Origin: an uncultured Chloroflexia bacterium | GTDB lineage: Bacteria; Chloroflexota; Anaerolineae; Anaerolineales; Anaerolineaceae | NCBI GenBank assembly: GCA_963802095.1 | Contig: CAWDHI010000006.1 | Span: 92,302 to 156,301, forward strand | Direction of reading: 5' to 3' | Length of the DNA stretch: 64,000 bases | Part shown: in pieces, positions 11,301-45,161 of the stretch | Numbering within the stretch: position 1 is the stretch's first letter | Layout: the number at the start of each line of letters is the position of its first letter | Made by a program: the position numbers and the translations under genes | The notes under the pieces: generated by a model | Told to the model about the DNA's origin: nothing | Database searches by the model: none | Seen by the model: only the letters and a program-made list of their open reading frames with translations

Positions 11301-11779
11301 CCTGCTGTTGGCTTGATCCGCTGATAAGCGCTTCATGAATACATGCTCGGTGATCCCACCCGGGTAACCATCGTAGACACCCAAAGGTTGATACCCGATG
11401 GTTGGATAGAACCTGGGTCCCTGGAAGGAAAAGGTCCAGGTTTGGGCGGCGAAACAACCGCCCGCGAAGCCGATCTGCTCCGCAGCGAGCACAAGCTGGC
11501 CGCCGTAGCCCTTCCCGCGGAGATCCTCCGAAACCCAAAGGACCTCCAGGTGCATCACCCTGAATACGGTACTGGCGATTACCCCGCCCAGAACTTGCCC
11601 GTCGGCGTCCTTCAGTGCCAGGGCGATCTCAATGTCCGGTTGGTCGATTTCCCCGCGGGTTTGGATGCGCTTCTCTTCATCGATCGAATTTTGAACCCAT
11701 TCCATCTCTTGACCAGCGTGGGATCATCCCGGATGGAAAAGGTTTGACCTTCCAACAAAAACGAGGTATTTGAGGGCAT
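11238..11779 (-). CDS. GNAT family N-acetyltransferase, tandem copy 3 (frame break near 11710)
   Basis: ORF 11238-11705 has ...LWVSEDLRGKGYGGQLVLAAEQ...TWTFSFQGPRFYPTIGYQPLGV...HVFMKRL. An upstream ATG at 11779 with RBS AGAGGAGAAG gives MPSNTSFLLEGQTFSIRDD in another frame. Confidence 0.65.
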
Positions 11780-11864
11780 GGAAGTCTTCTCCTCTGAAAG
11801 AAGGATCCGCTGGGCGGCTCAACGGCGCGATTCACCCACCGCCTTCGCAGGATGTTGTTGCATA

Positions 11865-11893
11865 AAAATAGCACGGAACGGGGGTAAAGGCAA
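11865..11893 (-). promoter_or_regulatory. second copy of the TTGCCT-17-TATTTT promoter, upstream of GNAT copy 3
   Basis: The minus strand reads TTGCCTttacccccgttccgtgcTATTTT, with the same hexamers and spacing as 10802-10830. Confidence 0.4.
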
Positions 11894-12075
11894 TATGGCA
11901 CAGCTCTGGCCGTAATTGCGTCGCGTTATCGCGAAATTTGCGTCCCCTTGTTGGGTGCACTCCCGGACGCATCTTCCGGGAGAGGAGGGCGTAGCCCGAA
12001 GCGGCAATCTCACCAGTATCCGAAGGAGGTGGAAAAGAGCGCGGGGGGGTTGGGCTACGATTCTTACTACAACTT

Positions 12076-12564
12076 TTAGAGTTTCTGAACAGAACCAGAG
12101 CCAGCCATAACCCATAATAGATCGTCTGTTGCTCTAATTACTGCTGGATTATTATTTTTTGGGTCCACAAACACTTCCACTTGACTTTCATCGTTGAGAT
12201 ACATATCAACGCTGCAAGATGGGGGATACAACCTGGTTTTCCAGCGCTCAGAAGTATTTTTATCCCACCGGGTCAAATACGCGAAATAATCCGTAGAATC
12301 CGAATCGTTTATCTTTTCAATTTTCATTTGCATTGAAGTTGGGGATATATTTTTGTAGATCCATAACAGACGCTGTTTACGCTGAAAAATGACAATAATG
12401 AAAGCAATTCCCATGACGATGAATATCCAACCCACTATTTGAAGAATGAGATCTTGTTTTTCATTCAAAAAGAAGAAACCAAGAATGACAAGACCTAAGC
12501 TAATGAATTGGCCAAGTAAAAAATATTGGTGGAATTTTTTTAAACTCAACCTTTCATTACCCAT
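12076..12564 (-). CDS. hypothetical membrane protein in a low-GC islet
   Basis: 162-aa intact ORF. Two TM helices then a soluble C-terminal domain. Markedly AT-rich compared with flanking sequence. Confidence 0.5.
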   Translation of the reverse strand: MGNERLSLKKFHQYFLLGQFISLGLVILGFFFLNEKQDLILQIVGWIFIVMGIAFIIVIFQRKQRLLWIYKNISPTSMQMKIEKINDSDSTDYFAYLTRWDKNTSERWKTRLYPPSCSVDMYLNDESQVEVFVDPKNNNPAVIRATDDLLWVMAGSGSVQKL

Positions 12565-12713
12565 TTTTCCTCCATTTTCTGTATTTTGTTCACCAAATGA
12601 CGATTAATTATATTCCTTTGGGAAGAAAAACGCCCAACGACACTTGCACGTGCAGCTAGTGCAGGTGAGTTATCCCATGAAAAGACAACCTCTTTATTGG
12701 AGAGTTTTTTTGT

Positions 12714-26644: not shown

Positions 26645-26669
26645 CTGAAAAACCAATAGTAATTAGCTG

Positions 26670-26741
26670 TGAGCGCGAAGGGGCTCGAACCCTTAACCAA
26701 TGGCTTAAAAGGCCACTGCTCTACCATTGAGCTACGCGCCC
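26670..26741 (-). tRNA. tRNA-Lys (anticodon UUU)
   Basis: I folded it by hand: acceptor GGGCGCG/CGCGCTC (one G-U), D arm GCTC/GAGC, anticodon arm GTGGC-CTTTTAA-GCCAT, T arm AAGGG-TTCGAGC-CCCTT, discriminator A. CCA is not encoded. Confidence 0.9.
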
Positions 26742-35746: not shown

Positions 35747-36286
35747 TCAGGCAGTCTTATACTTCGCGCCTTCCCGCAGGGCATCGTAGTTCTTCGAAAG
35801 AAGGTCGTGGTGGCGCTTGGGGAGGTGATCGCAAAGGGCTTTTTCCACCGCTTCGAGCGGGAGGAAGGGTTCATTCGCCAGCAGCCCGCCCAGCAGCACC
35901 ATGTTTGTCAGGCGTTTATCGCCCAGCTTCTCGGCGATATCGTTGGCGGGGATCATCACCACGCGTATATCGTTGCGCTTCGCCTCCCGGTTGACGATGG
36001 ACTGGTTAACCACCAGCACACCGCCATCCCGCACCAGCGGCTCATATTTATCCAGCGAGGGCAGGTTCATGGCGATGACGGCAGTGGGACGACTGACCAG
36101 GGGTGAACCGATCTCCTCATCCGCGACGATGACGGTGCAGTTGGCGGTGCCGCCCCGCATCTCGGGTCCATAGGATGGGATCCAGGTGGTCTCCTTTTTT
36201 TCATCCAGGGCGGCGTAGGCCAGCAGCTGCCCGGCGAAGAGGGTGCCCTGGCCACCAAAACCGGAAATGATCACTTCGGTCTGCAT
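35747..36286 (-). CDS. 2-oxoacid:ferredoxin oxidoreductase, gamma subunit
   Basis: [26 protein letters not shown]... Confidence 0.9.
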
Positions 36287-36298
36287 CGATTCTCTCCT

Positions 36299-37078
36299 CT
36301 AAAGTTTGGCTTCCAGCAGGGTGGGGTGAACCTTGAAATCAGTGAGCGGGAAGTAGGGCACCATTTTTTCCTCCAGCCAGACACGGGATGCCTGGGGGGT
36401 CATCCCCCAGTTGGTGGGGCAGGTGGAAAGGATCTCAACCATCGAGAAACCCAGCCCGCGCACCTGGACCTCGAAGGCCATGCGAATGGCTTTCTTGGTC
36501 AGGCGGATGTTCTTGGGGTCATGCAGCGAGCGCCGGACGATGTAACTGGCGCCATCCAGGGTTGCCAACAGCTCAGCAGCCCGCACGGGGTAGCCCATGG
36601 TCTCCACGTCGCGCCCATCGGGCGAGGAGGTGGTCTTCATCCCCGGCAGGGTGGTGGGGGCCATCTGCCCGCCGGTCATGCCGTAATTGGCGTTGTTGAT
36701 GAAGATGACGGTGATATTCTCGCCGCGGGCGGCAGCGTGGACGATCTCGCCCATGCCGATGGAGGCCATATCGCCATCTCCCTGGTAGGTGAGCACGATC
36801 TTATCCGGCAGCACGCGCTTGACGCCGGTGGCCATGGCGGGTGCGCGCCCGTGGGGAGCCTGCACCCAATCGAAATTGAAGTAGTTATAGGCAAAGACCG
36901 AGCAGCCAACCGAAGCCACGCCGATGGTGCGCTCGCGCAGACCCATTTCATCCAGCACCTCAGCAGCCAGCTTGTGAGCAACGCCGTGGGTGCAGCCGGG
37001 GCAATAGTGCGAAGATACATCGGTCAGGGATTTCGGGCGGGTATAGACGGGGGTGTAATCTAGATGTTCAATAACCAT
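36299..37078 (-). CDS. 2-oxoacid:ferredoxin oxidoreductase, beta (TPP-binding) subunit
   Basis: ...[13 protein letters not shown]...GDGD...[11 protein letters not shown]... Confidence 0.9.
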
Positions 37079-37087
37079 AATTACCTC

Positions 37088-38200
37088 CTAGCGTTCGGAA
37101 GCGATCCGCGCCAGCCAGCGGTCGCGGGGGTGACCTTCGGTGGAAGCAGTTCCGGAGGCCATGTGGCGGATCTCGGCAGCGATCTCTTCGGGCAGCGGGG
37201 TGATCCCACCGGTGCGCGCATAGAATTCCACGGGGGTCCGGCAGCTATTGGCAAGCAGGACATCTTCCAGCATCTGCCCGTTGTTCATCTCCACCACCAG
37301 GATGCCCTTGACCCGGGCGGCGAGCGCGCCGATGGCTTTGACGGGGAACGGGTTGAGGGTGATGGGCCGTAGCAGCCCAACCTTGATCCCTTCGGCACGC
37401 AAGGCGCGCACCGTGCTTAGCGCCACCCTGCCGGCCGAGCCGAAGCCGATCACGGCGTATTCGGCATCCTCGAGGAAGTACTCCTTGTAGCGGATCTCGT
37501 TGGCTTGCACTTCCTGCCAGCGGCGTGCCATGCGCAGGTTGGCTTTCTCCTGCGAGGCAGTATCCAGCTGGATGGAGGAGAGCACGTGACGCTTTTCGCC
37601 ATCCACGCCACGCACCGCCCATTCGGGGTAGCTGGTTTTAAGGGGCTGCATGGGGGGCAGCTCACAGGGTTCCATCATCTGCCCGATGCTGCCGTCGGTG
37701 AGCACCACGCAGATGGAGCGATATTTTTCAGCCAGGTCGAAGGCCAGAATGGTCAGATCAACCGATTCCTGCACACTGGCAGGGGCGAGGACGATGGGGT
37801 AGTAATCCCCGTGCCCGCCGCCATGGACGATCTGGTTGTAATCTGCCTGCGCCGGGGCGATATTGCCAAGGCCTGGCCCGCCGCGCATCACATCTACAAG
37901 GACCATGGGCACCTCGGTGCCGGCGATGTAGGAGAGACCCTCCATCATCAGGCTAACACCGGGGCTGGAGGAGGAGGTCATGGTGCGCGCGCCGGTGCAG
38001 GCAGCGCCGTAGACCATGTTAATGGCGCCCAGCTCGCTCTCAGCCTGGACGAAGGCACGCCCCAGTTGGGGCATGCGCCGGGAGAGGTATTCCAGCAGTT
38101 CTGTCTGCGGGGTGATGGGGTAGCCAAAATAGGCCTGCATGCCTGCGCGAACAGCAGCTTCTGCAACTGCCTCGTTTCCCTTCCAAAGTTCACGGGTCAT
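37088..38200 (-). CDS. 2-oxoacid:ferredoxin oxidoreductase, alpha subunit
   Basis: ...WKGNEAVAEAAVRAGMQAYFGYPITPQTE...QAESELGAINMVYGAA... Confidence 0.9.
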   Translation of the reverse strand: MTRELWKGNEAVAEAAVRAGMQAYFGYPITPQTELLEYLSRRMPQLGRAFVQAESELGAINMVYGAACTGARTMTSSSSPGVSLMMEGLSYIAGTEVPMVLVDVMRGGPGLGNIAPAQADYNQIVHGGGHGDYYPIVLAPASVQESVDLTILAFDLAEKYRSICVVLTDGSIGQMMEPCELPPMQPLKTSYPEWAVRGVDGEKRHVLSSIQLDTASQEKANLRMARRWQEVQANEIRYKEYFLEDAEYAVIGFGSAGRVALSTVRALRAEGIKVGLLRPITLNPFPVKAIGALAARVKGILVVEMNNGQMLEDVLLANSCRTPVEFYARTGGITPLPEEIAAEIRHMASGTASTEGHPRDRWLARIASER

Positions 38201-38607: not shown

Positions 38608-38635
38608 TTGACAATTCGATTTCCCTCGCTATAAT
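38608..38635 (+). promoter_or_regulatory. consensus sigma70 promoter TTGACA-16-TATAAT for the ubiquitination-like operon
   Basis: TTGACA at 38608-38613 and TATAAT at 38630-38635, both perfect hexamers, 39 nt upstream of the E1 ATG. Confidence 0.6.
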
Positions 38636-38665
38636 CTTGTTTAGTGGTCTGATTAACAAACAAGA
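38635..38665 (+). promoter_or_regulatory. 8-bp inverted repeat TCTTGTTT-15 nt-AAACAAGA spanning the predicted +1/5'-UTR (candidate operator or SD-occluding hairpin)
   Basis: Arms at 38635-38642 and 38658-38665. The right arm overlaps the only purine-rich SD-like stretch (AAGAG) before ATG 38674. Confidence 0.35.
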
Positions 38666-38673
38666 GAATAATA

Positions 38674-40317
38674 ATGACATTCAATCTTCTTCCCCGTAAA
38701 TCCCTATCCGACGTGCTGGCCGGGCGGATCGCCAATGCCATCACCAGCGGGAAATTCAAACCCCTCAGCCAGTTGCCCTCCGAACGCGAGTTGTGCGAAC
38801 AGTTCGGGGTGGGGCGCTCCACGCTGCGGGAGGCATTAAAAGTCCTGCAGGAGAATGAGCTGATCACCGGCAAGCAGGGAGTGGGCTGGTTCGTCAATGA
38901 GTTGAATGCCTCCAATCTTGCCAATGCCCGCGAGTTGGCAGCTACGGATCTCTCCCTGATCGCGGATGATACGGATAAAAAGGCGCGGGATGAATCTGCA
39001 GGACCCAAGCGGCTGCCGGTCTCGCCGGAAAAACCGCTGGTGCTGCCCAACCTGAAGACAGACCGGCAGGGGACCTTTGAGCTGATCTCCTGGTGGGAGC
39101 GCGATAAGGTGGCAAAGGCCAAGGTGCTGGTTGTGGGGGCGGGAGCGCTTGGCAACGAGGTGGCCAAAAATCTGGCGCTGATGGGCGTGGGGCAAATTTT
39201 CATCCTGGATTTCGATACCATCGAGCTGGCCAACCTGAGCCGCTCGGTACTCTACCGCGAAAGCGACACCGGCCGCCGCAAAGCCGAAGTGGCAGCCGCC
39301 CGGCTGAAGGACCTGAACCCCAATGTACGGGTGCAGTACCTGCATGCCGATGTGACCACCGGGCTGGGGCTGGGCATCCTCCGCCGGATGGATGTGATCA
39401 TTGGCTGCCTGGATAACCGCGAGGCCCGGCTGGCTGTGAACCGATTCGCCTACTGGATGAACAAACCCTGGGTGGATGGTGCCATCCAGGAGTTCCTCGG
39501 GCTGGTGCGGGTCTTCATCCCCGGGCAGGGTGCCTGTTTTGAGTGCACGCTTACTGAGCAGGCCAGGCGGGATCTTTCCCTGCGATATTCCTGCCCACTG
39601 CTGGCGCGAGAAAACGTGCTTCTTGGCAAGGTGCCCACCACGCCGACCATCGCCTCCATCATAGGCGCCATGCAGGCACAGGAAGCGCTCAAGATCATCC
39701 ATGCGTTGCCGGTTGAGGCGGGTAAGGTTACCCATTTCAACGGCATGACCAACGATATGCACACCAGCGCTTACAAACCGCGCGAGGATTGCGAATCGCA
39801 CTGGACCTACGGCGAGGTGACCGAGCTGCCTGCGAGCGCGGGCAAGACCACCCTGGGTGAGATGGTTCGCATTGTCCACGCCGACCTTGGCGCTGAGGCC
39901 GTGCTGGAGCTGGACCAGGAGATGATCATTTCCCTGAACTGCACTGCCTGCCAGACGCGCGAGCGGGTGTTGAAGCCCATGGCGGAGGTAACATTCAAAG
40001 CTGCGCACTGCCCAACCTGCGGCAACTTGCGCGAGATCGAAATGACCCACACGGTGACTGGCAAGGAGGATTACCTTTCCCTGACCCTTGCAGATGCGGG
40101 TGTTCCTGCGCTGCACATCCTGCGCGCCTATAATGCCCGTGAATACAGATTCTACGAATTGACCGGAGACTTGAAGGAAGCGCTGCACTTCAGCCATTTT
40201 GAAAAAGCTTCCCTGGTCGGTGCGACCCGCGGGATCAAAGTTCGCCTTGGAGAGGAAGAACCATCGATCGTCGTTAAACCAAAAGACAAAGGATCCAGGA
40301 TCACCCTGAAGGAATAG
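38674..40317 (+). CDS. GntR-type wHTH fused to an E1-like (ThiF/MoeB/Uba) adenylation domain and a C-terminal CxxC-x19-CxxC/beta-grasp-like region
   Basis: aa 10-78 LSDVLAGRIANAITSGKFKPLSQLPSERELCEQFGVGRSTLREALKVLQENELITGKQGVGWFV (GntR HTH). aa 148-215 KAKVLVVGAGALGNEVAKNLALMGVGQIFILDFDTIELANLSRSVLYRESDTGRRKAEVAA (E1 Rossmann/ATP site). Candidate crossover-loop Cys in RYSCPLL. C423xxC426...C446xxC449. Confidence 0.85.
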   Translation: MTFNLLPRKSLSDVLAGRIANAITSGKFKPLSQLPSERELCEQFGVGRSTLREALKVLQENELITGKQGVGWFVNELNASNLANARELAATDLSLIADDTDKKARDESAGPKRLPVSPEKPLVLPNLKTDRQGTFELISWWERDKVAKAKVLVVGAGALGNEVAKNLALMGVGQIFILDFDTIELANLSRSVLYRESDTGRRKAEVAAARLKDLNPNVRVQYLHADVTTGLGLGILRRMDVIIGCLDNREARLAVNRFAYWMNKPWVDGAIQEFLGLVRVFIPGQGACFECTLTEQARRDLSLRYSCPLLARENVLLGKVPTTPTIASIIGAMQAQEALKIIHALPVEAGKVTHFNGMTNDMHTSAYKPREDCESHWTYGEVTELPASAGKTTLGEMVRIVHADLGAEAVLELDQEMIISLNCTACQTRERVLKPMAEVTFKAAHCPTCGNLREIEMTHTVTGKEDYLSLTLADAGVPALHILRAYNAREYRFYELTGDLKEALHFSHFEKASLVGATRGIKVRLGEEEPSIVVKPKDKGSRITLKE

Positions 40318-40321
40318 ACGC

Positions 40322-41152
40322 ATGGAATCCGGCGATTCATCCTTGAAGGACAGGTTTAAAAAGACCGGCCGCGAGGCGCTCATCCTGGCAATTCGGCTGG
40401 TAGGAGTGATCTTGCCGGTGGTTGCCGCGGGTATCCTCCTGCTGCTCCTTTTTTTGCAGAATACGACTGTCCATCTGGTGGTCTTTGGTTTCACAACCAC
40501 AGTGTGCCTGGGTTTATTGGCCGGTTTCCTTTCCAGATGGATCCTAAAAAAAAGTACCTTTGCGCTACGCTTCCTGGTCGCGGTAGTTGCTTTATTTACC
40601 GGGATGGTGGTGATGTACTTGATCTCGAGCGGGATGCTGGGACTGAGCCCCTACATCCGGACTGCCATTGACTGGTACGGTCTGGTACAGATCGGGATCG
40701 GAGTGGGTGCTGTGTATATTGCAATAAAAGGGTTCCGCCGCAAGCAGGTTCAGGTCGAAGTGGATGCTCCAGCAGGATTATCCGCTGCAGCTCCCGCATC
40801 CGCGCAGCCCCTGGTGATTTCTGCGGCTGACGCCACCGTGATCACACCCGTACCTGGGAGAAGAAAATCAACGGCGAAAAAAAGCAAAAGCCCCACCAAA
40901 AAGGTGGCTGAAAAGAAGAAGGTGGTCGTCGGAAAAAAAGCAGCATCGAAAACAACACCAACAGCAAAGCGCTCCCGTAAAAAAGTGATCCTGGCGGCTT
41001 TTGATGAGCACCGCTGCCCTTATTGCCTTGAGGATGTCAAGCGCAACGATCCACGCGGGGTGGTTGTCTGCCCCATCTGCAAAGCCTACCATCACAAGGA
41101 TTGCTGGGATATCACCGGGCGCTGCCAGGTACCGCATGATACCCCGCTATAA
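40322..41152 (+). CDS. four-TM membrane protein with Lys-rich linker and C-terminal RING-like (prokaryotic RING/treble-clef) zinc finger; candidate E3
   Basis: TM helices around aa 18-46, 50-72, 80-104 and 117-136. Linker aa 180-221 has 16 Lys (KSTAKKSKSPTKKVAEKKKVVVGKKAASK...). C-terminus C232PYC235-x14-C250PIC253-x3-H257H258-x2-C261-x6-C268-x3-H272. Confidence 0.75.
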   Translation: MESGDSSLKDRFKKTGREALILAIRLVGVILPVVAAGILLLLLFLQNTTVHLVVFGFTTTVCLGLLAGFLSRWILKKSTFALRFLVAVVALFTGMVVMYLISSGMLGLSPYIRTAIDWYGLVQIGIGVGAVYIAIKGFRRKQVQVEVDAPAGLSAAAPASAQPLVISAADATVITPVPGRRKSTAKKSKSPTKKVAEKKKVVVGKKAASKTTPTAKRSRKKVILAAFDEHRCPYCLEDVKRNDPRGVVVCPICKAYHHKDCWDITGRCQVPHDTPL

Positions 41153-41173: not shown

Positions 41174-42019
41174 ATGCCCGAACTATCGATCACGATCGTT
41201 ATGCCCAACGGCGGAGCCCGCCGCGCCGATATCCCCGATGACCTGCCAGTGCGCGAGATCATCGCCGAGCTGACCTCGCTGCTCAAGCTGCCCACCGTGG
41301 GTCCCGATGGCCGCCCGATGGGTTATCGCCTGGATAGCAAAGCCCTGGGCCGCGAGCTTTGGGAGACCGAGACATTCTCCGAAGCAGGTATCCCGCCCGA
41401 GGATCGCCTGATGCTGACAGCGGATATCACTGCGGGCAGCACGGCGGTGAGTGAAAGCCCGCGCATGCGCAGGCTCCGCGCAGATTACCAGCTCGTACAG
41501 GAGCTGGCGGCGCGATCAGATCTGATCAAGGTGAACGCCAAACCGGTGAGCACCGGTTTCCTGCCCGAACGGTACATCATTACTTACCTCTGCAAGAGCA
41601 TTGCGAAGGTGGATCGCAAGGGTGAGCCAGTGATGGCCAGCCGGCACCAGGTGGAGATCTACCTGCACAACCAGTATCCCCAGCGCTGGCCGGGACTGAT
41701 GTGGCTGACGCCCATCTGGCACCCCAATATCAATCACCAGAATGGCAGCGTGTGCATCGATGCCGCCTGGTGGGCAGCCAGCCGTTCGCTCGACAGGCTG
41801 GTGATCATGATGGGTGAGATGCTGCAATACAAGAATTTTCATGATGATCCAACCAAGCCACCTTTTCCGTGGGATGTGGAAGCTGCCCGCTGGTGCCGCG
41901 AGTACCGCGCCAGGCACCCCAATATTTTTCCTGTTGATCGCCGTGAATTGCTGCGGCCCGAGCGGGTCAAGCTGCGCAGCACCGCTGCCCCAAAGCCTTC
42001 ACGTGTTCGGATCAAGTAG
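41174..42019 (+). CDS. ubiquitin-like (beta-grasp) domain fused to a UBC-fold E2 with eukaryote-type HPN...Cys active site
   Basis: aa 1-88 are paralogous to the free Ubl and end ...LTADITAG|S. E2 core ...YIITYLC...HQVEIYLHNQYPQRWPGLMWLTPIWHPNINHQNGSVCIDAAWW... (HPN 183-185, Cys194). Confidence 0.85.
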   Translation: MPELSITIVMPNGGARRADIPDDLPVREIIAELTSLLKLPTVGPDGRPMGYRLDSKALGRELWETETFSEAGIPPEDRLMLTADITAGSTAVSESPRMRRLRADYQLVQELAARSDLIKVNAKPVSTGFLPERYIITYLCKSIAKVDRKGEPVMASRHQVEIYLHNQYPQRWPGLMWLTPIWHPNINHQNGSVCIDAAWWAASRSLDRLVIMMGEMLQYKNFHDDPTKPPFPWDVEAARWCREYRARHPNIFPVDRRELLRPERVKLRSTAAPKPSRVRIK

Positions 42020-42055: not shown

Positions 42056-42322
42056 ATGACAGACAAATCTGTGACGCTTGTACTACCCTCCGGTGGAAGC
42101 CGCACTGCAGAAGTGCCGGATGATGTTCCCGTGAAAGAGCTGCTCCCCGAGCTGACCACTTCACTGGCTTTGCCGGTGACGGGGCCTGATGGCCGCCCAA
42201 TCAGCTACCGGATCGACAGCAAGGCCCTGGGACGCGAGCTACTGGAAGATGAAACCCTGGCAGCCGCGGGAATCCCGGCCGAAGACCGTTTGATGATCAC
42301 CGCGGATATCACCGCCGGGTAA
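42056..42322 (+). CDS. free ubiquitin-like (beta-grasp) protein ending in ...ADITAG-stop
   Basis: RBS AAAAGGAG 6 nt before the ATG. MTDKSVTLVLPSGGSRTAEVPDDVPVKELLPELTTSLALPVTGPDGRPISYRIDSKALGRELLEDETLAAAGIPAEDRLMITADITAG. C-terminal Gly directly before the stop. Confidence 0.8.
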   Translation: MTDKSVTLVLPSGGSRTAEVPDDVPVKELLPELTTSLALPVTGPDGRPISYRIDSKALGRELLEDETLAAAGIPAEDRLMITADITAG

Positions 42323-42350: not shown

Positions 42351-43022
42351 ATGGAAAACAGCCAGAACCGCATTCGCTTGATCCCGGAACACCTTCAGCC
42401 CACCCAGCAAGGACGCATGCCTTTAAAGCGTTCGATCCGCTGGGTGCCGGCGGGGGGTGAGGATAGCCAGACTGCCCCGGCGGTGGAGATCTTCTTCAGC
42501 CAGCGCGCGTATATCCGCGCATGCGCCATCGCCGGGCAGGATCTGAATAACGAAACCGGCGGTTGGCTGTTGGGAAAACACCGTGTGGATATTACGAGCG
42601 GACGCGACTATGTGGTGATCGACCGGGTGCTGCCCGCCGAGGCCACACGCTTCGGGCGGGCGCACCTGACCTTCACGCAGGATAGCATAGTGGCGATCAA
42701 CCGGGAGATGGAGGAGTGCTACCCTGGTAAGGAGCTGGTGGGTTGGTTCCATACCCACCCGCGCATGGGGGTCTTCTTTTCCACCTGGGATCACTGGCTG
42801 CACGAGAATTTTTATCCTGCTACCTGGCAGGTGGCGCTGGTGATCGAACCATACAATTTCTGGGGCGGGTTCTTCACCCAAACCACGGACGGGAACCTGG
42901 ATAACCACCGTTATTTTGGTTTTCACGAACTGACCGGCAGGGATGGGCGCAGCGTTGTGCTCTGGCGCAACCTGGTGCCCGCAAGTACCCCAAAGGCAGG
43001 TAAAGGAGGTTGTTTTCAATGA
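42351..43022 (+). CDS. JAB/MPN (JAMM) metallopeptidase; candidate Ubl-processing/deconjugating enzyme
   Basis: ...NNE68TGGWLLG... and ...GWFH134TH136PRMGVFFS144TWD147... give the complete E...HxHx7Sx2D JAMM motif. Confidence 0.85.
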   Translation: MENSQNRIRLIPEHLQPTQQGRMPLKRSIRWVPAGGEDSQTAPAVEIFFSQRAYIRACAIAGQDLNNETGGWLLGKHRVDITSGRDYVVIDRVLPAEATRFGRAHLTFTQDSIVAINREMEECYPGKELVGWFHTHPRMGVFFSTWDHWLHENFYPATWQVALVIEPYNFWGGFFTQTTDGNLDNHRYFGFHELTGRDGRSVVLWRNLVPASTPKAGKGGCFQ

Positions 43023-43936
43023 GCCGTGCAATGCGGATCTATTACTTTGCCATCCTGGGGGCCATTGGAGGGTTGTTTGCCTGGCAGGCAAGCAATTACC
43101 TCGGGTTGTCGTTCTTTGGCAACCTGTATATAAGCGAGCTGGGAGTGGGAGCGCTGATCGGTTTCCTGATCGGTGCGTGCATCGGGCTTTCCGATGGATT
43201 AATGACCAGAAATTACCACCAGATGTGGCAATCCGGGCTGGCAAGCGGCCTGCTCGGCATGGCCGGTGGAGCCATCGGGCTGCCGCTTGCGGAGGCTGTT
43301 TTCCAGCTGACCGGCGGGATGCTCTTCAGCCGGATGATCGGTTGGGGAATCTTCGGGCTGGCGATCGGGTTCGCCGGGGGAATCAAAGGCGGATCGCAAG
43401 CCTGGAAAAGCGCCCTGGGAGGGCTTCTTGGCGGCGCGCTTGGGGTGTTGCTGCTGGAGGTTTTCCGTACGCTGGTTAAATCACCGGTCTACGGAAAAGG
43501 CGCCGGGCTGCTGCTGCTGGGAGCGGGGATTGGCGCGTGCATTGCGCTCTTCACCTACCTGCTTACCCGTGCCTGGTTCGAGGTGACCAGCGGCAAGATG
43601 CAGGGCACCGAGTTCATTTTGGATAAATTCCTGAAAAAGGGAGGACCGGCGGCATTCATCGGCAGCTCTCCCATGAAGTCCGATATCGTCCTGCCGGACC
43701 CGGATATCGCCCCCCAGCATGCCATCTTGCGCGGGGCTGACACCTATTTCGTCCTGAAGGATCTCAGCCTGGGCGGGACTTTCATCGATGGGAAAAAGAT
43801 GGAGGAGGCGCCGCTGCGGGACGGGCAAACGATCAGCCTTGGGACATACGAAGATCGATCTACCGGGAGAAGAGAGGCTAACCATGAACAAGAACATTTC
43901 GAAAAATTATCGCCTTTTTCGTCTGCCTGGGATTGA
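43019..43936 (+). CDS. glycine-zipper-rich polytopic membrane protein with C-terminal FHA domain (frame break near 43845; probable true stop about 43881)
   Basis: ATGA overlap with the JAB stop. About 6 helices full of GxxxG (GVGALIGFLIGACIG, GLLGMAGGAIG, GWGIFGLAIGFAGGIKGG, GGLLGGALGVLLL). FHA core ...FIGSSPMKSDIVLPDPDIAPQHAILRGADTYFVLKDLSLGGTFIDGKKMEEAPLRDGQTISLG... Confidence 0.75.
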   Translation: MSRAMRIYYFAILGAIGGLFAWQASNYLGLSFFGNLYISELGVGALIGFLIGACIGLSDGLMTRNYHQMWQSGLASGLLGMAGGAIGLPLAEAVFQLTGGMLFSRMIGWGIFGLAIGFAGGIKGGSQAWKSALGGLLGGALGVLLLEVFRTLVKSPVYGKGAGLLLLGAGIGACIALFTYLLTRAWFEVTSGKMQGTEFILDKFLKKGGPAAFIGSSPMKSDIVLPDPDIAPQHAILRGADTYFVLKDLSLGGTFIDGKKMEEAPLRDGQTISLGTYEDRSTGRREANHEQEHFEKLSPFSSAWD

Positions 43937-44975
43937 TCCTTTCGCTGACAGCAGCACCGGTGCATGCCGGGGATGAGCCGGTGGTGCGCATCACCCAGGT
44001 GGATACATCGCGCTTCCCGCTGGTGACAGTCTATATCTCGGTGACCGATGCCAACGGGCAGCCACTGCCGGTCAACCCGGGCAGCCTGGTGGTGATGGAA
44101 AACGGCCAGCCGGTGGATGCCCAGCTCCTGCAGGGCGCAGGTGAAGCAGGTCCGGTCACCACGCTGCTGCTCATGGATACCTCAGGCAGCATGGCCACCG
44201 GCAAGAAGCTGATGCGCGCAAAGGAAGTGGCCAGGGATTTCATCGGCCGCATGCGGGCAGGTGACCAGACCGGCATTCTGGCATTCAACACCGACCTGAC
44301 CCTTGCGCAGGCTGTCACCGACGATACAGACTGCGCTGGATAATGCCATCGATAAGCTTTTTGCGCGCGGAGATACCGCCATGTACGACGCCCTGGTGAG
44401 GGGTGAGGATGTTCTGGCGGATGTGCCCGGGCGGAAGGCGATCGTGGCGCTGACGGACGGGATGGATAACCGCAGCTCGGTGAAAGCCGCAGACGTGATC
44501 GGGAAGATCGCAGCCAGCGGGCTGACCATCTCGACCATCGGGCTTGGGGATTCCAACCAGACCAGCGGCAGCCAGACCGCGCTGGATGAAAAGGCGCTGA
44601 GGTATCTGGCGGAAAATAGTGGCGGACTCTATAGCTTCGCCAAGGACCCTGCTGCACTGGCAGCGATCTATGAACTCTACCAGCGCGGGCTTCAGAGCGA
44701 GTACGCGGTGACGTACACATCACCTTCCTCCCTGCGTGACGGGCTGAATAGGGTGCTTTCGGTCTCGCTGAGCGAGCAGGCGGCTGCAGTACCTGCGAAA
44801 TACAACCCCGGCGGGCTGGTGCCCGAGGTGGGTCAGCCGGCATCCTGGGGAGCGTTTCTCGGGATGCTTGGGTTTCCTGGTGCTTCTGCTCTTCGTGCCA
44901 ACCATCGTGAAGGAGGTGCGCATCCGCAGGGAGCACGGCGCCCTCGAAAGCAGCCGAGCCATCGGGGAAGGTTAA
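43884..44975 (+). CDS. von Willebrand factor A (vWA) domain protein with signal peptide and C-terminal TM anchor (3 frame breaks)
   Basis: MNKNISK(K)IIAFFVCLGLILSLTAAPVHA after correcting an A-run. MIDAS LLLMDTSGSM. ...GDTAMYDAL...ALTDGMDN...TISTIGLG... Tail ...FLGMLGFLVLLLFVPTIVKEVRIRRE... Frames change near 43905, 44325 and 44870. Confidence 0.75.
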
Positions 44976-45021
44976 GCTGAAGGAATCTCCTTCGAAGAGG
45001 ATCAAATTGAAGTAGGAAAGT

Positions 45022-45048
45022 AAATGCCCGGGTAACCGGGTATTTCTT
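45022..45048 (+). terminator. candidate intrinsic terminator of the operon (AAATGCCCGG-GTAA-CCGGGTATTT, then CTTAT)
   Basis: 10-bp stem with one G-U. The T-tract is weak. Confidence 0.4.
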
Positions 45049-45161
45049 ATCAATCAACAGGTCATTTTTAGTCGTATCAGCAGCGACCAGTCTGACCTTA
45101 CAAAATATGATCTGCAATAAGAAAATTGAGTCGTTGTTTAAATTGTTTGAAAATCATTAGG

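What the first reader, a model, noticed from the sequence alone, without database searches (positions are those of the whole stretch)
40322..41152. Polytopic membrane protein with a histone-tail-like Lys-rich linker and a C-terminal RING-like zinc finger (candidate membrane E3)
Seen: there are four hydrophobic helices in aa 18-136 with a positively charged N-terminus, so the C-terminus is predicted cytoplasmic. A low-complexity Ala/Pro stretch follows. Then a 42-aa segment carries 16 lysines (nt 40859-40984). Then come eight to nine Cys/His ligands: C232-x2-C235-x14-C250-x2-C253-x3-H257-H258-x2-C261-x6-C268-x3-H272 (nt 41009-41137). Established: small prokaryotic RING-finger families were defined computationally in Ub-like operons, and the Caldiarchaeum small RING protein stimulates E2 discharge. 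Inference: here the RING is tethered to the membrane. The adjacent Lys-rich tract is either a built-in acceptor for auto-modification or a nucleic-acid/anionic-lipid binder. That predicts ubiquitination happens at the inner face of the membrane, where phage DNA entry, secretion systems and the downstream FHA protein would be.
Basis: partly seen in the sequence, partly recalled or inferred. Interest (0 to 1): 0.7.

Follow-up and report, generated by a model that had tools for sequence, protein, structure and literature searches.

The report
Membrane-anchored bacterial RING ubiquitin-like ligase
This gene encodes a membrane-anchored RING-finger protein, the predicted E3 ligase of a complete ubiquitin-like tagging operon found in Chloroflexota bacteria; the protein family was already defined by computer analysis but has never been tested experimentally.

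Summary
ORF 40322-41152 (+) encodes a 276-aa protein with three parts: a four-helix membrane domain, a roughly 90-aa disordered and strongly basic linker (15 Lys and 4 Arg within 42 aa), and a C-terminal Cys/His domain. That domain scores above threshold for Pfam Prok-RING_1 (PF14446). AlphaFold models it confidently as a knuckle/beta-hairpin/helix treble clef whose best structural matches are PHD and RING fingers.

It is not a singleton. There are 577 cluster representatives, and relatives occur in 251 species-level genomes, almost all Chloroflexota/Anaerolineae. The exact ligand motif is kept in 119 of 120 homologues.

"Membrane E3" is therefore the best reading. It is also what Burroughs, Iyer and Aravind proposed computationally in 2011.

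The "acceptor lysine" idea is not supported across the family. Positive charge is conserved, lysine is not, and some intact members have no linker lysine.

The module is chromosomal, often next to rplJL and lexA, and absent from viral and plasmid collections, so a phage-defence role is unsupported.

Verdict: new member of a known, untested kind.

The parts
38608..38635 (+). Consensus sigma-70-type promoter (TTGACA-16-TATAAT, 12/12) 39 nt upstream of the E1 start
   Evidence: Conserved in the three closest relatives L001-L003.
38630..38670 (.). Inverted repeat (TATAATCTTGTTT / AAACAAGAGAATA) overlapping the -10 box. It is a candidate operator for the GntR domain fused to E1 (inference).
   Evidence: The CTTGT...ACAAG arms are conserved in L001-L003.
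38674..40317 (+). E1-like activating enzyme: N-terminal GntR winged helix (aa 13-74), ThiF adenylation domain (aa 130-374), C-terminal region with two CxxC pairs. It ends in the basic tail ...SRITLKE.
   Evidence: Pfam ThiF 3.9e-59 and GntR 1e-18. Sequence. Conserved upstream of the RING gene in 76/80 loci.
40322..41152 (+). The finding: a 276-aa membrane-anchored Prok-RING_1 protein, the candidate E3
40337..40732 (+). Four-helix membrane domain (aa 6-137), N-in/C-in
   Evidence: AlphaFold helices 6-46, 52-74, 80-101 and 118-137 at pLDDT above 90. Positive-inside charge counts. No structural relative found.
40733..41005 (+). Disordered basic linker (aa 138-228). It contains an Ala/Pro-rich part and the Lys-rich tract at nt 40859-40984.
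   Evidence: pLDDT about 50. 15 K and 4 R in 42 aa. Across the family, charge is conserved and lysine is not.
41006..41137 (+). RING-like binuclear zinc finger (aa 229-272): H230, C232, C235, C250, C253, H257, H258, C261, C268, H272
   Evidence: Pfam PF14446 at 38.9 bits. Invariant columns. AlphaFold pLDDT 88 with strands 247-249 and 256-258 and helix 259-265. Foldseek best matches are PHD and RING fingers.
41174..42019 (+). Ubl-E2 fusion: YukD-like beta-grasp (aa 6-74) ending ...ADITAG (aa 82-87), then a UBC-fold E2 with HPN183-185 and catalytic C194. It ends in the basic tail ...SRVRIK.
   Evidence: Pfam UQ_con and YukD. Aligns to UBE2K/UBE2D over the active site. HPN..C in 76/78 loci and internal TAD[IV]TAG in 70/78.
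42056..42322 (+). Free YukD-like Ubl, 88 aa from ATG 42056 (AAGGAG Shine-Dalgarno), ending ...ADITAG followed directly by the stop codon
   Evidence: Pfam YukD 8.7e-10. Start-codon analysis. The C-terminus TAD[IV]TAG-stop is near-invariant across loci.
42351..43022 (+). JAB/JAMM metallopeptidase (H134-x-H136-x7-S144-x2-D147), the predicted deconjugating and processing enzyme
   Evidence: Pfam Prok-JAB. Motif; present in 71/72 loci.
43031..43936 (+). Polytopic membrane protein (about six Gly-rich hydrophobic segments, aa 1-179) with a C-terminal FHA domain. The start is ambiguous (43010, 43019 or 43031). The 3' end in this window is frameshifted relative to the family from about 43845.
   Evidence: Pfam FHA 1.8e-12. 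Hydropathy. The family C-terminus is ...GNTEMVYHEKR, against ...ISLGTYEDRSTGRRE... in the window.
43891..45060 (+). Seventh module gene: an exported vWA-domain protein with signal peptide, MIDAS motif DTSGSM, C-terminal TM anchor and basic cytosolic tail ...KVKLKESPSKRIKLK. In this window it is broken into three reading frames.
   Evidence: tblastn of the L001 orthologue. Three-frame reading. Pfam VWA_2 and VWA on the L001 orthologue. Present directly after the FHA gene in 59/59 loci with room.

Best explanation
The ORF encodes the membrane-anchored RING-type E3 subunit of a seven-gene ubiquitin-like conjugation module that is chromosomally conserved in Chloroflexota (Anaerolineae-type genomes).

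Shown here:
- A four-helix N-in/C-in membrane bundle, followed by a roughly 90-aa disordered linker of constant high positive charge.
- A C-terminal Prok-RING_1 zinc finger with a treble-clef layout and invariant ligands.
- Obligatory co-occurrence with an E1, a canonical HPN-Cys E2 fused to a Ubl, a free Ubl with an exposed C-terminal Gly, a JAMM peptidase, a membrane FHA protein and an exported, membrane-anchored vWA protein.

Inferred:
- E1 adenylates the Ubl and passes it to C194 of the E2.
- The RING, held at the cytoplasmic face of the membrane, binds E2~Ubl. The likely contact surface is invariant Y234 and W262, the positional counterparts of the E2-contacting Ile and Trp of the tested Caldiarchaeum RING.
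- The RING then promotes transfer to lysines of membrane-proximal targets. The most economical candidates are the module's own membrane proteins: the Lys-rich cytosolic tail of the vWA receptor, or the FHA protein.
- JAB reverses the mark and may release the Ubl from the Ubl-E2 fusion after ...TAG.
- The basic linker acts as a flexible tether that hugs anionic lipid head groups, rather than as an obligatory acceptor.
- The overall logic resembles a transmembrane signalling device (outside vWA sensor, inside FHA reader and Ubl writer/eraser) more than a mobile defence cassette.
For: - Pfam Prok-RING_1 above the gathering score, and the only significant family.
- Invariant ligands in 119/120 homologues.
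- AlphaFold RING model at pLDDT 88 with a beta-hairpin plus a helix starting at H258/C261.
- Foldseek ranking is led by PHD fingers; RING, RING-H2 and U-box domains follow lower in the list, and RCHY1 RING has the best TM-score, 0.59/0.63. HOIL-1 RING2 scores 0.27.
- Full-length model: a confident 4-helix bundle, a low-confidence linker, a confident RING.
- Positive-inside counts place the RING in the cytoplasm.
- Colinear E1 > RING > Ubl-E2 > Ubl > JAB > FHA in all 80 loci where the contig allows, with vWA following in 59/59.
- E2 HPN..C in 76/78 loci and the JAMM motif in 71/72.
- The E2 aligns with UBE2K/UBE2D across the active site.
- The free Ubl ends in Gly-stop.
- An archaeal small RING of the same kind of operon is a proven E3 (PMC5654768).
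- A 'tri-ligase' set of E1, Ubl-E2 fusion, prokaryotic RING and JAB is recognised in other bacterial systems (PMC7159879).
Against: - There is no biochemical evidence for any bacterial Prok-RING protein.
- Foldseek E-values are not significant (0.09 or higher). I had no model coordinates, so the cross-brace pairing of ligands is inferred from secondary-structure order and match ranking, not measured.
- The best sequence match in the PDB is a sequential-zinc RBR RING2 domain (HOIL-1, E 2.9e-4), followed by zinc ribbons.
- The canonical linchpin Arg/Lys after the last ligand is missing: D273 here, and L/Q/H/Y/S elsewhere.
- The E2 has Gln where UbcH5 has the RING-contacting Phe62 (read against my own knowledge of UbcH5).
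- Substrates are entirely inferred.
Confidence: 0.6

Rival explanations
1. Reader or scaffold, not ligase. The zinc finger is a PHD-like peptide-binding module that docks a partner at the membrane. Candidates are the alternating basic/hydrophobic C-terminal tails shared by E1, Ubl-E2 and vWA, or the Ubl itself. The protein would then be a non-catalytic membrane organiser, and the E2 would transfer the Ubl on its own.
For: - The top Foldseek matches are PHD fingers: Pygo, TAF3, MLL1 and AL3.
- The ligand order C4-H-C-C-H with C-x4-H-x2-C is PHD-like, and there is a weak Pfam PHD hit.
- There is no linchpin residue.
- Three module proteins share a tail motif that needs a reader: 54/76, 52/73 and 38/62, against 6/3043 in background ORFs.
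- Archaeal E1 and E2 auto-modify without an E3.
Against: - The Pfam PHD score of 15.3 is far below its cut-off of 24, whereas Prok-RING_1 is above its own.
- RING domains have the highest TM-scores (2ecm 0.59/0.63, 1iym 0.51/0.54).
- The gene sits directly between E1 and E2.
- In the only tested prokaryotic operon of this kind, the small RING is required for substrate modification.
Confidence: 0.2
2. The Lys-rich linker is a built-in acceptor, so the E3 auto-modifies next to its own RING, and this auto-modification is the functional output or a regulatory switch.
For: - The window's clade is unusually Lys-rich: 16 K against 6 R in the linker, a Lys share of 0.73 against a family mean of about 0.35. 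GC content explains this only partly (rho -0.38).
- RING E3s commonly auto-ubiquitinate (general knowledge).
- The Caldiarchaeum E1 and E2 auto-modify on lysines.
Against: - Across 119 homologues the linker has a median of 5% Lys against 14% Arg.
- Intact members such as P0085 and P0112 have no linker lysine, and P0027, P0052 and P0106 have one.
- Net charge is constant across GC classes while the Lys share varies.
- A lysine acceptor in the linker therefore cannot be required for the family's function. At most it is a clade-specific addition.
Confidence: 0.12
3. The module is an anti-phage defence system of the Bil / CBASS type II / Bub kind, with the membrane RING directing Ubl conjugation to incoming phage components.
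For: - All experimentally characterised bacterial E1/E2/Ubl/DUB operons so far act in phage defence.
- The Aravind group reads E1/E2/RING/JAB sets as conflict systems.
- One MAG carries two copies of the module (L015 and L070).
Against: - PADLOC gives only generic E1 and JAB hits, and nothing for the RING, E2 or Ubl proteins.
- There are no relatives on 2.9 million viral contigs or 72,556 plasmids.
- Gene order is colinear across proteins only about 30% identical.
- In about 26 loci the module lies directly downstream of nusG-rplKAJL, and in about 21 it lies near lexA. The window's clade shares its own fixed flanks.
- This pattern indicates vertical inheritance at a stable address, not island behaviour.
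- The exported vWA and membrane FHA partners suggest signal sensing.
Confidence: 0.12
4. The domain is not a cross-brace finger at all. It would be a zinc ribbon (C232, C235, C250, C253) followed by a second, sequential zinc site, as in RBR RING2/IBR domains or ribosomal protein eL43. It might then even carry a thioester like an Rcat domain.
For: - The best PDB sequence match is HOIL-1 RING2 (E 2.9e-4), followed by eL43/L37ae zinc ribbons.
- The C-x2-C-x14-C-x2-C spacing equals that of L37ae.
- JGI pipelines label many family members 'ribosomal protein L37AE/L43A'.
Against: - The column that aligns with the HOIL-1 catalytic Cys is R245, and no conserved spare Cys exists.
- HOIL-1 RING2 is the poorest structural match listed, with TM 0.27 and probability 0.15.
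- Strand-strand-helix, with the helix starting at H258-x2-C261, is the treble-clef layout.
- There is no RING1 or IBR partner domain.
Confidence: 0.05

Closest known systems
Pfam PF14446 Prok-RING_1 / prokaryotic RING fingers of Burroughs, Iyer & Aravind 2011 (Mol Biosyst 7:2261)
   Same: The HMM match is above the curated threshold, and the gene neighbourhood holds E1, E2, Ubl and JAB. By my recollection of the Pfam entry and the paper's abstract (the paper is not held in the library), the bacterial members carry transmembrane helices, and the authors proposed that YukD-like Ubls are conjugated by such systems.
   Different: Nothing essential differs for the protein itself. The points documented here, which I could not check against that paper, are these: the constant-charge linker; the membrane FHA and exported vWA partners; the shared C-terminal tails; the GntR fusion on E1; and the stable address next to rplJL and lexA.
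Caldiarchaeum subterraneum small RING finger protein (srfp), the only tested prokaryotic RING E3 (PMC5654768)
   Same: It is operon-encoded with E1, E2, Ubl and a JAMM peptidase, and it is a small binuclear RING. Its E2-contact positions (Ile between the first two ligands, Trp in the helix) have invariant counterparts here, Y234 and W262.
   Different: srfp is soluble and has a linchpin Arg (R69). The protein here is membrane-anchored, lacks a basic residue after the last ligand, has a C4-H-C-C-H ligand set, and works with a YukD-type Ubl and a Ubl-E2 fusion.
Eukaryotic transmembrane RING E3s (MARCH/RING-CH family, Hrd1, RNF13-type; review PMC4021871)
   Same: The working logic is the same: a polytopic or bitopic membrane anchor places a cytosolic RING so that E2~Ub is discharged onto the cytosolic tails of neighbouring membrane proteins. 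The C4HC-type ligand set resembles RING-CH and PHD.
   Different: There is no detectable homology beyond the RING superfamily and no RINGv Pfam hit. The domain order is reversed, with the RING C-terminal to four TM helices. The membrane domain has no structural relative.
Tri-ligase Ubl module of vWA-MoxR-FtsH ternary conflict systems (Kaur, Burroughs, Iyer & Aravind 2020, PMC7159879)
   Same: [quoted passage not shown]
   Different: No MoxR or FtsH ATPase, EAD1 adaptor or caspase-like effector was detected among the module genes or the conserved flanking gene families I annotated. The vWA here is exported and membrane-anchored. The host range is Chloroflexota rather than deltaproteobacteria, actinobacteria and planctomycetes.
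Bil, CBASS type II (Cap2/Cap3) and Bub bacterial ubiquitination-like defence operons
   Same: All use E1 / E2 / Ubl / peptidase logic in a bacterial operon.
   Different: Those systems have no RING E3 and no membrane components of this kind. PADLOC models match only the generic ThiF and JAB cores. The E2 here is a canonical HPN-Cys UBC, unlike the serine E2 of Bub.
YukD in type VIIb secretion (B. subtilis T7SSb core complex, PMC12637312)
   Same: A YukD-family beta-grasp protein is encoded with a membrane protein that carries cytosolic FHA domains. In T7SSb, YukD docks non-covalently on those FHA domains.
   Different: T7SS YukD is not conjugated, by my recollection of Iyer et al. 2006. The Ubl here ends in an exposed Gly and is encoded with E1, E2, RING and JAB. 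No T7SS genes are present.

Membership tests
Pfam Prok-RING_1 (PF14446) | Profile-HMM score above the curated gathering threshold (29.1 bits) | tested here: met
   34.2 bits for the full protein and 38.9 bits for the domain alone. Most homologues carry the precomputed PF14446 hit.
Pfam Prok-RING_1 (PF14446) | Gene neighbourhood with Ubl, E1, E2 and JAB components | tested here: met
   Colinear operon in 80/80 loci as far as the contigs reach. Catalytic motifs are conserved.
Pfam Prok-RING_1 (PF14446) | Bacterial versions carry transmembrane helices (Pfam description, from memory) | tested here: met
   Four helices at pLDDT above 90, supported by hydropathy and conserved across the alignment.
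RING-type E3 ligase (functional class) | Eight zinc ligands arranged as a cross-brace binuclear treble clef | tested here: inconclusive
   More than eight invariant Cys/His are present. The knuckle/hairpin/helix order fits. The best Foldseek matches are PHD, RING and U-box domains. However, E-values are 0.09 or higher and no coordinates were available to measure which ligands share a zinc.
RING-type E3 ligase (functional class) | Hydrophobic E2-contact residues (Ile-type between ligands 1 and 2; Trp/Leu in the helix) | tested here: inconclusive
   Near-invariant Y234 and invariant W262 occupy those motif positions, by comparison with I30 and W58 of srfp. No structural superposition or complex model was possible.
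RING-type E3 ligase (functional class) | Linchpin Arg/Lys directly after the last zinc ligand | tested here: not met
   The residue after H272 is D here and L/Q/H/Y/S in relatives.
RING-type E3 ligase (functional class) | Binds zinc (2 per domain) and stimulates E2~Ubl discharge | not testable with these tools
   Needs ICP-MS and discharge assays with the module's own E1, E2 and Ubl.
RBR RING2 / Rcat domain | Catalytic cysteine in the first zinc loop, sequential zinc binding, RING1-IBR-RING2 context | tested here: not met
   The column aligned with the HOIL-1 catalytic Cys is R245. HOIL-1 RING2 has a structural TM-score of 0.27. It is a single domain with no IBR or RING1.
PHD finger (PF00628) | C4HC3 signature and a profile score above threshold | tested here: not met
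   15.3 bits against a cut-off of 24, and the last ligand is His, not Cys. The fold-level resemblance is real, so it may work like a PHD finger, but it is not a member.
MARCH / RING-CH membrane E3s | N-terminal RINGv (C4HC3) domain followed by TM helices | tested here: not met
   No RINGv hit, and the RING lies C-terminal to the TM domain. It is a functional analogue only.
Bil / CBASS type II / Bub defence systems | Match to system-specific protein models; island-like, mobile distribution | tested here: not met
   PADLOC gives only generic E1-E2 and JAB core hits, and none for the RING, E2 or Ubl proteins. No viral or plasmid relatives. Flanks are conserved.
Ribosomal protein eL43 / L37ae zinc ribbon (label given by JGI pipelines) | Single C4 zinc ribbon in a ribosomal protein of about 70-100 aa | tested here: not met
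   Only weak matches (E 0.007-0.2) over the first four Cys. Four further invariant ligands, a membrane domain and the Ub-operon context all argue against it. The label is a misannotation.

The most novel reading that the evidence does not exclude
The seven genes form a vertically inherited, non-defence, transmembrane ubiquitin-like signalling machine.
- An exported vWA receptor senses something outside the cell.
- A membrane FHA protein and a membrane RING E3 sit beside it.
- The RING E3 writes a YukD-type Ubl mark onto cytosolic tails at the inner face of the membrane, and JAB erases it.
- E1, Ubl-E2 and the vWA receptor are all recruited through one shared C-terminal basic beta-strand tail, [KR]-[IV]-[KRH]-[LI]-[KRH], which acts as a common docking code.
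- The GntR domain on E1 couples the state of the pathway to transcription of the operon.

This would be the first bacterial example of receptor-coupled, membrane-localised ubiquitin-like signalling, analogous to MARCH- or Cbl-type regulation of receptors in eukaryotes.
Probability: 0.3. Interest if true: 0.75.

Novelty: new member of a known kind. Interest (0 to 1): 0.45.

Why it matters
Bacterial operons with a complete E1-E2-RING E3-Ubl-DUB set are the closest bacterial counterparts of eukaryotic ubiquitination, yet none has been studied at the bench. The characterised bacterial pathways (CBASS type II, Bil, Bub) all lack a RING E3.

This family has several practical advantages:
- It is abundant, with 577 cluster representatives and relatives in 251 species-level genomes.
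- It is compact, with a 55-residue RING that models confidently.
- Its E2 is canonical enough to align with human UBE2K and UBE2D.

It is therefore a tractable entry point for three questions: whether RING-type catalysis predates eukaryotes in bacteria; what a YukD-type Ubl does when it is conjugated; and whether bacteria use Ubl marks for membrane signalling rather than only for phage defence.

For the scan itself, the finding is a correct reading of a family that was already predicted. It is not a new kind of system.

Tried and rejected
- Looking up the contig that encodes the window's exact protein found nothing on record, and the cluster look-up gave no name or accession. The source organism is therefore inferred only from relatives, which are MAGs labelled Chloroflexia, Anaerolineales or Anaerolineae.
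- The two key Aravind-group papers, PMC5938088 and PMC5881585, are not held in the library. What I say about their content is from memory.
- NCBIfam has no model for the RING, E2, Ubl or JAB proteins. PADLOC has none for the RING, E2, Ubl or FHA proteins.
- A fold search with the full-length model gave only non-specific partial GPCR or helical-bundle matches for the membrane domain. The weak Pfam 7TMR-DISM_7TM hit (E 0.003, below threshold) was not pursued.
- I tested whether the Lys/Arg ratio of the linker is explained by genomic GC alone. It is only partly explained (rho -0.38), so the Lys richness of the window's clade remains a clade-level peculiarity.
- A strict regular expression for a tail-like strand just before the RING matched only 29/79 loci. 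I do not claim the RING protein shares the tail motif.
- The 340-aa minus-strand ORF 44031-45053 looked like a conserved neighbour in the first flank clustering. It is a shadow of the plus-strand vWA gene.
- A pseudo-fusion trick to co-fold the RING with the E2 was considered and dropped.
Full report
OBSERVATION. The ORF at 40322-41152 (+) is real. It starts with ATG, has an AAGGA ribosome-binding site, and begins 4 nt after the stop of the upstream gene.

The 276-aa product has three strongly hydrophobic segments and a weaker fourth. An Ala/Pro-rich stretch follows. Next comes a 42-aa tract (nt 40859-40984) with 15 Lys, not 16, and 4 Arg. The probability of that many Lys is about 2e-10 given the Lys content of the partner proteins.

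H230 lies just upstream.

WHAT THE DOMAIN IS. Pfam places aa 229-268 in Prok-RING_1 (PF14446). The score is 34.2 bits for the whole protein and 38.9 bits for the domain alone, against a curated cut-off of 29.1. Every other zinc-finger family (PHD, C1, zf-RING_2, zf-RING_16, zinc ribbons) is far below its own threshold.

An AlphaFold model of aa 218-276, built on 33 family sequences, is confident, with mean pLDDT 88. It shows strand 247-249, strand 256-258 and helix 259-265. That gives a zinc knuckle (C232-x2-C235), then a beta-hairpin carrying C250-x2-C253 at its turn, then a helix that begins at H258-x2-C261. This is the layout of a treble clef.

In a Foldseek search of the PDB nothing reaches significance, which is usual for a 59-residue query. 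The ranking is nevertheless coherent. PHD fingers lead it; RING-H2, RING and U-box domains appear lower in the list. The best TM-scores belong to the RCHY1 RING (0.59/0.63) and the EL5 RING-H2 (0.51/0.54).

A sequence-profile search of the PDB raised a genuine alternative. Its best hit was the HOIL-1 RBR RING2 domain (E 2.9e-4), followed by eL43/L37ae zinc ribbons, whose C-x2-C-x14-C-x2-C spacing is identical to the spacing here. Three results argue against that sequential-zinc reading:
- The column aligned with the HOIL-1 catalytic cysteine is Arg245.
- No spare conserved cysteine exists.
- HOIL-1 RING2 is the worst structural match listed, with TM 0.27.

I could not obtain model coordinates. 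The cross-brace pairing of ligands therefore remains inferred rather than measured.

THE REST OF THE PROTEIN. A full-length model built on 99 sequences gives four helices (6-46, 52-74, 80-101, 118-137) at pLDDT above 90. The linker at aa ~145-225 has pLDDT about 50, and the RING about 90.

Charge counts over the family alignment follow the positive-inside rule for an N-in/C-in topology. Loop 2 nets +2.4 and the post-TM4 segment +3.1, while loops 1 and 3 are about neutral. The RING therefore faces the cytoplasm, as it must in order to meet a cytosolic E2. The membrane domain has no structural relative in the PDB.

THE FAMILY. The protein search returned 206 homologues, mostly 255-340 aa long and covering the full length. 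A profile of the RING domain finds 577 cluster representatives at 50% identity, 378 of them below E 1e-10. In all of the listed 150 the RING lies at the extreme C-terminus.

One genome per species was scanned, and 251 encode a relative. Of the best 80, 78 are Chloroflexota MAGs labelled Chloroflexia, Anaerolineales or Anaerolineae. The two exceptions are on contigs of 1.5 kb and 8.1 kb.

The strict ligand motif is present in 119 of 120 listed homologues. The invariant columns are C232, P233, C235, D243, G246, C250, C253, H257, H258, C261, W262, G266, C268, Q269 and H272.

THE LINKER. Between the last helix and the RING the median linker is 99 aa. It has 5% Lys, 14% Arg, 5.6% acidic residues, and a net charge of about +18. 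Some intact members have no Lys at all (P0085, P0112) or only one (P0027, P0052, P0106).

Basic content (19-23%) and net charge (+15 to +18) are flat across genomic GC classes. The Lys share falls with GC (rho -0.38) and averages about 0.35. The window's clade stands out at 0.73. Positive charge on a disordered tether is the conserved feature. Lysine is a clade-level preference.

A lysine acceptor in the linker therefore cannot be required for the family's function, though auto-modification in this clade is not excluded. The simplest role for a constant +15 to +18 juxtamembrane tether is electrostatic association with anionic lipid head groups, while still giving the RING reach. That role is inference.

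THE OPERON. In the window the gene lies within a run of same-strand genes:
- a GntR-ThiF E1 (38674-40317);
- the RING protein;
- a YukD-UBC fusion (41174-42019);
- a free YukD-like Ubl (42056-42322);
- a Prok-JAB peptidase (42351-43022);
- an FHA protein (43031-43936).

The E2 has the canonical WHPNI...GSVC194ID active site and aligns directly with UBE2K, UBE2D and UBE2N. JAB has the H-x-H-x7-S-x2-D JAMM motif. The free Ubl ends ...ADITAG followed by the stop codon, and the Ubl domain of the fusion carries the same ...ADITAG internally.

I searched the ORFs of all 80 related loci with the window's proteins. The order E1 > RING > Ubl-E2 > Ubl > JAB > FHA is colinear wherever the contig reaches, with only two loci placing the RING gene ahead of E1. 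Across loci the E2 HPN..C motif is kept in 76/78, the JAMM motif in 71/72, and the internal TAD[IV]TAG in 70/78.

The FHA protein is itself a polytopic membrane protein, with about six Gly-rich hydrophobic segments ahead of the FHA domain.

It encodes an exported vWA protein with these features:
- a signal peptide;
- a MIDAS motif, DxSGSM;
- a C-terminal membrane anchor;
- a short basic cytosolic tail.

Three of the seven products are thus membrane proteins.

DEFENCE OR HOUSEKEEPING. The evidence points away from a mobile defence island.
- PADLOC recognises only the generic ThiF and JAB cores.
- No relative exists on IMG/VR viral contigs or PLSDB plasmids.
- In about 26 loci the module lies directly downstream of nusG-rplK-rplA-rplJ-rplL. 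In about 21 it lies next to lexA and DUF2089/DUF4097 genes.
- The window and its four closest relatives share a different but equally fixed neighbourhood, with 2-oxoacid:ferredoxin oxidoreductase genes upstream.

Colinearity is maintained across proteins only about 30% identical, and the chromosomal addresses are stable. Together these indicate vertical inheritance within the lineage.

MECHANISM. Best-supported reading, confidence about 0.6: this is the membrane-anchored RING-type E3 of the module.

Shown: the domain identity, the topology, the obligatory E1/E2/Ubl/JAB partnership and the conserved catalytic motifs.

Inferred:
- The RING binds E2~Ubl through the Y234/W262 surface. These residues are the positional counterparts of I30 and W58 in the Caldiarchaeum srfp, whose mutation impairs ligation (PMC5654768).
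- It promotes transfer to lysines of membrane-proximal targets. The vWA tail and the FHA protein are the most economical candidates.
- JAB removes the mark and may free the Ubl from the fusion.

Two caveats apply. No bacterial Prok-RING protein has been tested. The canonical linchpin basic residue after the last ligand is absent.

The main rival, at about 0.2, is that the finger is a PHD-like reader or scaffold rather than a catalytic cofactor. The PHD-dominated fold matches and the presence of a shared tail motif that needs a reader make this plausible.

COMPARISON WITH WHAT IS KNOWN. The protein is a member of Pfam Prok-RING_1. By my recollection, that entry states that bacterial versions carry TM helices. 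Also by recollection, the abstract of Burroughs, Iyer and Aravind 2011 proposes prokaryotic RING E3s acting with E1, E2, JAB and Ubl, and conjugation of YukD-like Ubls. Neither source could be retrieved here.

[quoted passage not shown] Kaur et al. 2020 describe the same tri-ligase set of E1, Ubl-E2 fusion, prokaryotic RING and JAB in vWA-MoxR-FtsH systems of other phyla.

Functionally the closest analogues are eukaryotic transmembrane RING E3s such as the MARCH family, but this protein is not a member of that family. A cryo-EM study of the B. subtilis T7SSb shows YukD docking non-covalently on FHA domains of a membrane ATPase. That is a useful precedent for the YukD-Ubl / membrane-FHA pairing seen here.

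VERDICT. It was, however, already predicted for this family, so this is a new member of a known, computationally defined kind.

The lysine-acceptor and phage-entry elaborations are not supported. What I add is the seven-gene architecture with the vWA and membrane FHA partners, the charge-not-lysine rule for the linker, the shared C-terminal tails, and the stable chromosomal address. Together these point to a membrane signalling role that would be notable if confirmed.

Noticed in passing
window 43891-45060 (+); compare L001:11558-12790 and L003:~11567-12709: A seventh conserved module gene follows the FHA gene: an exported vWA protein with signal peptide, MIDAS motif, C-terminal TM anchor and basic tail. 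In the window it is split over three reading frames by single-base indels near 44332 and 44873, plus changes at 44933-44992. The five upstream genes are intact. This is either assembly error or real decay.
   Followed up: partly
window 43840-43936: The 3' end of the FHA gene is also frameshifted. The family ends ...GNTEMVYHEKR-stop and L001 ends ...ISLGHTKVVYREKRG-stop. The window reads ...ISLGTYEDRSTGRREANHEQ..., with the expected residues visible in the other two frames (HTK..., then ...IYREKRG-stop).
   Followed up: partly
window 44031-45053 (-): This 340-aa minus-strand ORF is Arg/Pro/Ser-rich and has no Pfam hit. It is a shadow of the plus-strand vWA gene, not a gene. It first appeared as a 'conserved neighbour' in the flank clustering.
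   Followed up: yes
window 40297-40317 (E1 C-terminus), 41999-42016 (Ubl-E2 C-terminus), ~45010-45060 (vWA tail); the same positions in L001-L080: Three non-homologous module proteins end in the same alternating basic/hydrophobic tail, [KR]-[IV]-[KRH]-[LI]-[KRH]. In the window these are ...SRITLKE, ...SRVRIK and ...KVKLKESPSKRIKLK. The motif is present in 54/76 E1, 52/73 Ubl-E2 and 38/62 vWA C-termini, against 6/3043 background ORFs and 0 in JAB, FHA or RING. JAB C-termini are acidic instead. This is a possible shared docking motif; its partner is unknown.
   Followed up: partly
window 38608-38670: A perfect consensus promoter (TTGACA-16-TATAAT) is overlapped by an inverted repeat with CTTGT...ACAAG arms, conserved in L001-L003. 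It lies 39 nt upstream of an E1 that carries an N-terminal GntR winged helix. This suggests that the E1 represses its own operon.
   Followed up: partly
L012-L080 subset, e.g. L012:2780-6100 and L013:10701-14727: In about 26 loci the module lies directly downstream of nusG-rplK-rplA-rplJ-rplL. In about 21 it is followed by lexA and a DUF2089/DUF4097/SHOCT gene set. This is a core-genome address that is unusual for a bacterial ubiquitin-like operon.
   Followed up: partly
L035 and L066: A gene-order variant in which the RING gene lies upstream of E1 instead of between E1 and the Ubl-E2 fusion.
   Followed up: no
L015 and L070 (both from MAG MFD01689.bin.1.112): Two copies of the module are assigned to the same metagenome-assembled genome. 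This is either a real duplication or a binning artefact.
   Followed up: no
homologues P0002-P0006, P0014, P0025 and others: JGI pipelines label many family members 'ribosomal protein L37AE/L43A', a misannotation caused by the shared C-x2-C-x14-C-x2-C spacing.
   Followed up: yes
L002, L004, L028, L057, L074, L077, L080 (E1); L002 and L003 (RING); L002 and L004 (JAB): Many related loci, mostly from one series of MAGs labelled MFD, have module genes split into two or more ORFs. This is consistent with indel-rich long-read assemblies and bears on how to read the frameshifts in the window.
   Followed up: no
window 26669-26741 (-): A single tRNA-Lys (UUU anticodon) is the only RNA gene detected in the 64-kb window by ARAGORN and Rfam.
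   Followed up: no
window 35747-38200 (-): Three genes for a 2-oxoacid:ferredoxin oxidoreductase (POR gamma, TPP-binding beta, POR_N alpha) are transcribed divergently from the module. The same neighbourhood occurs in L001-L004.
   Followed up: no
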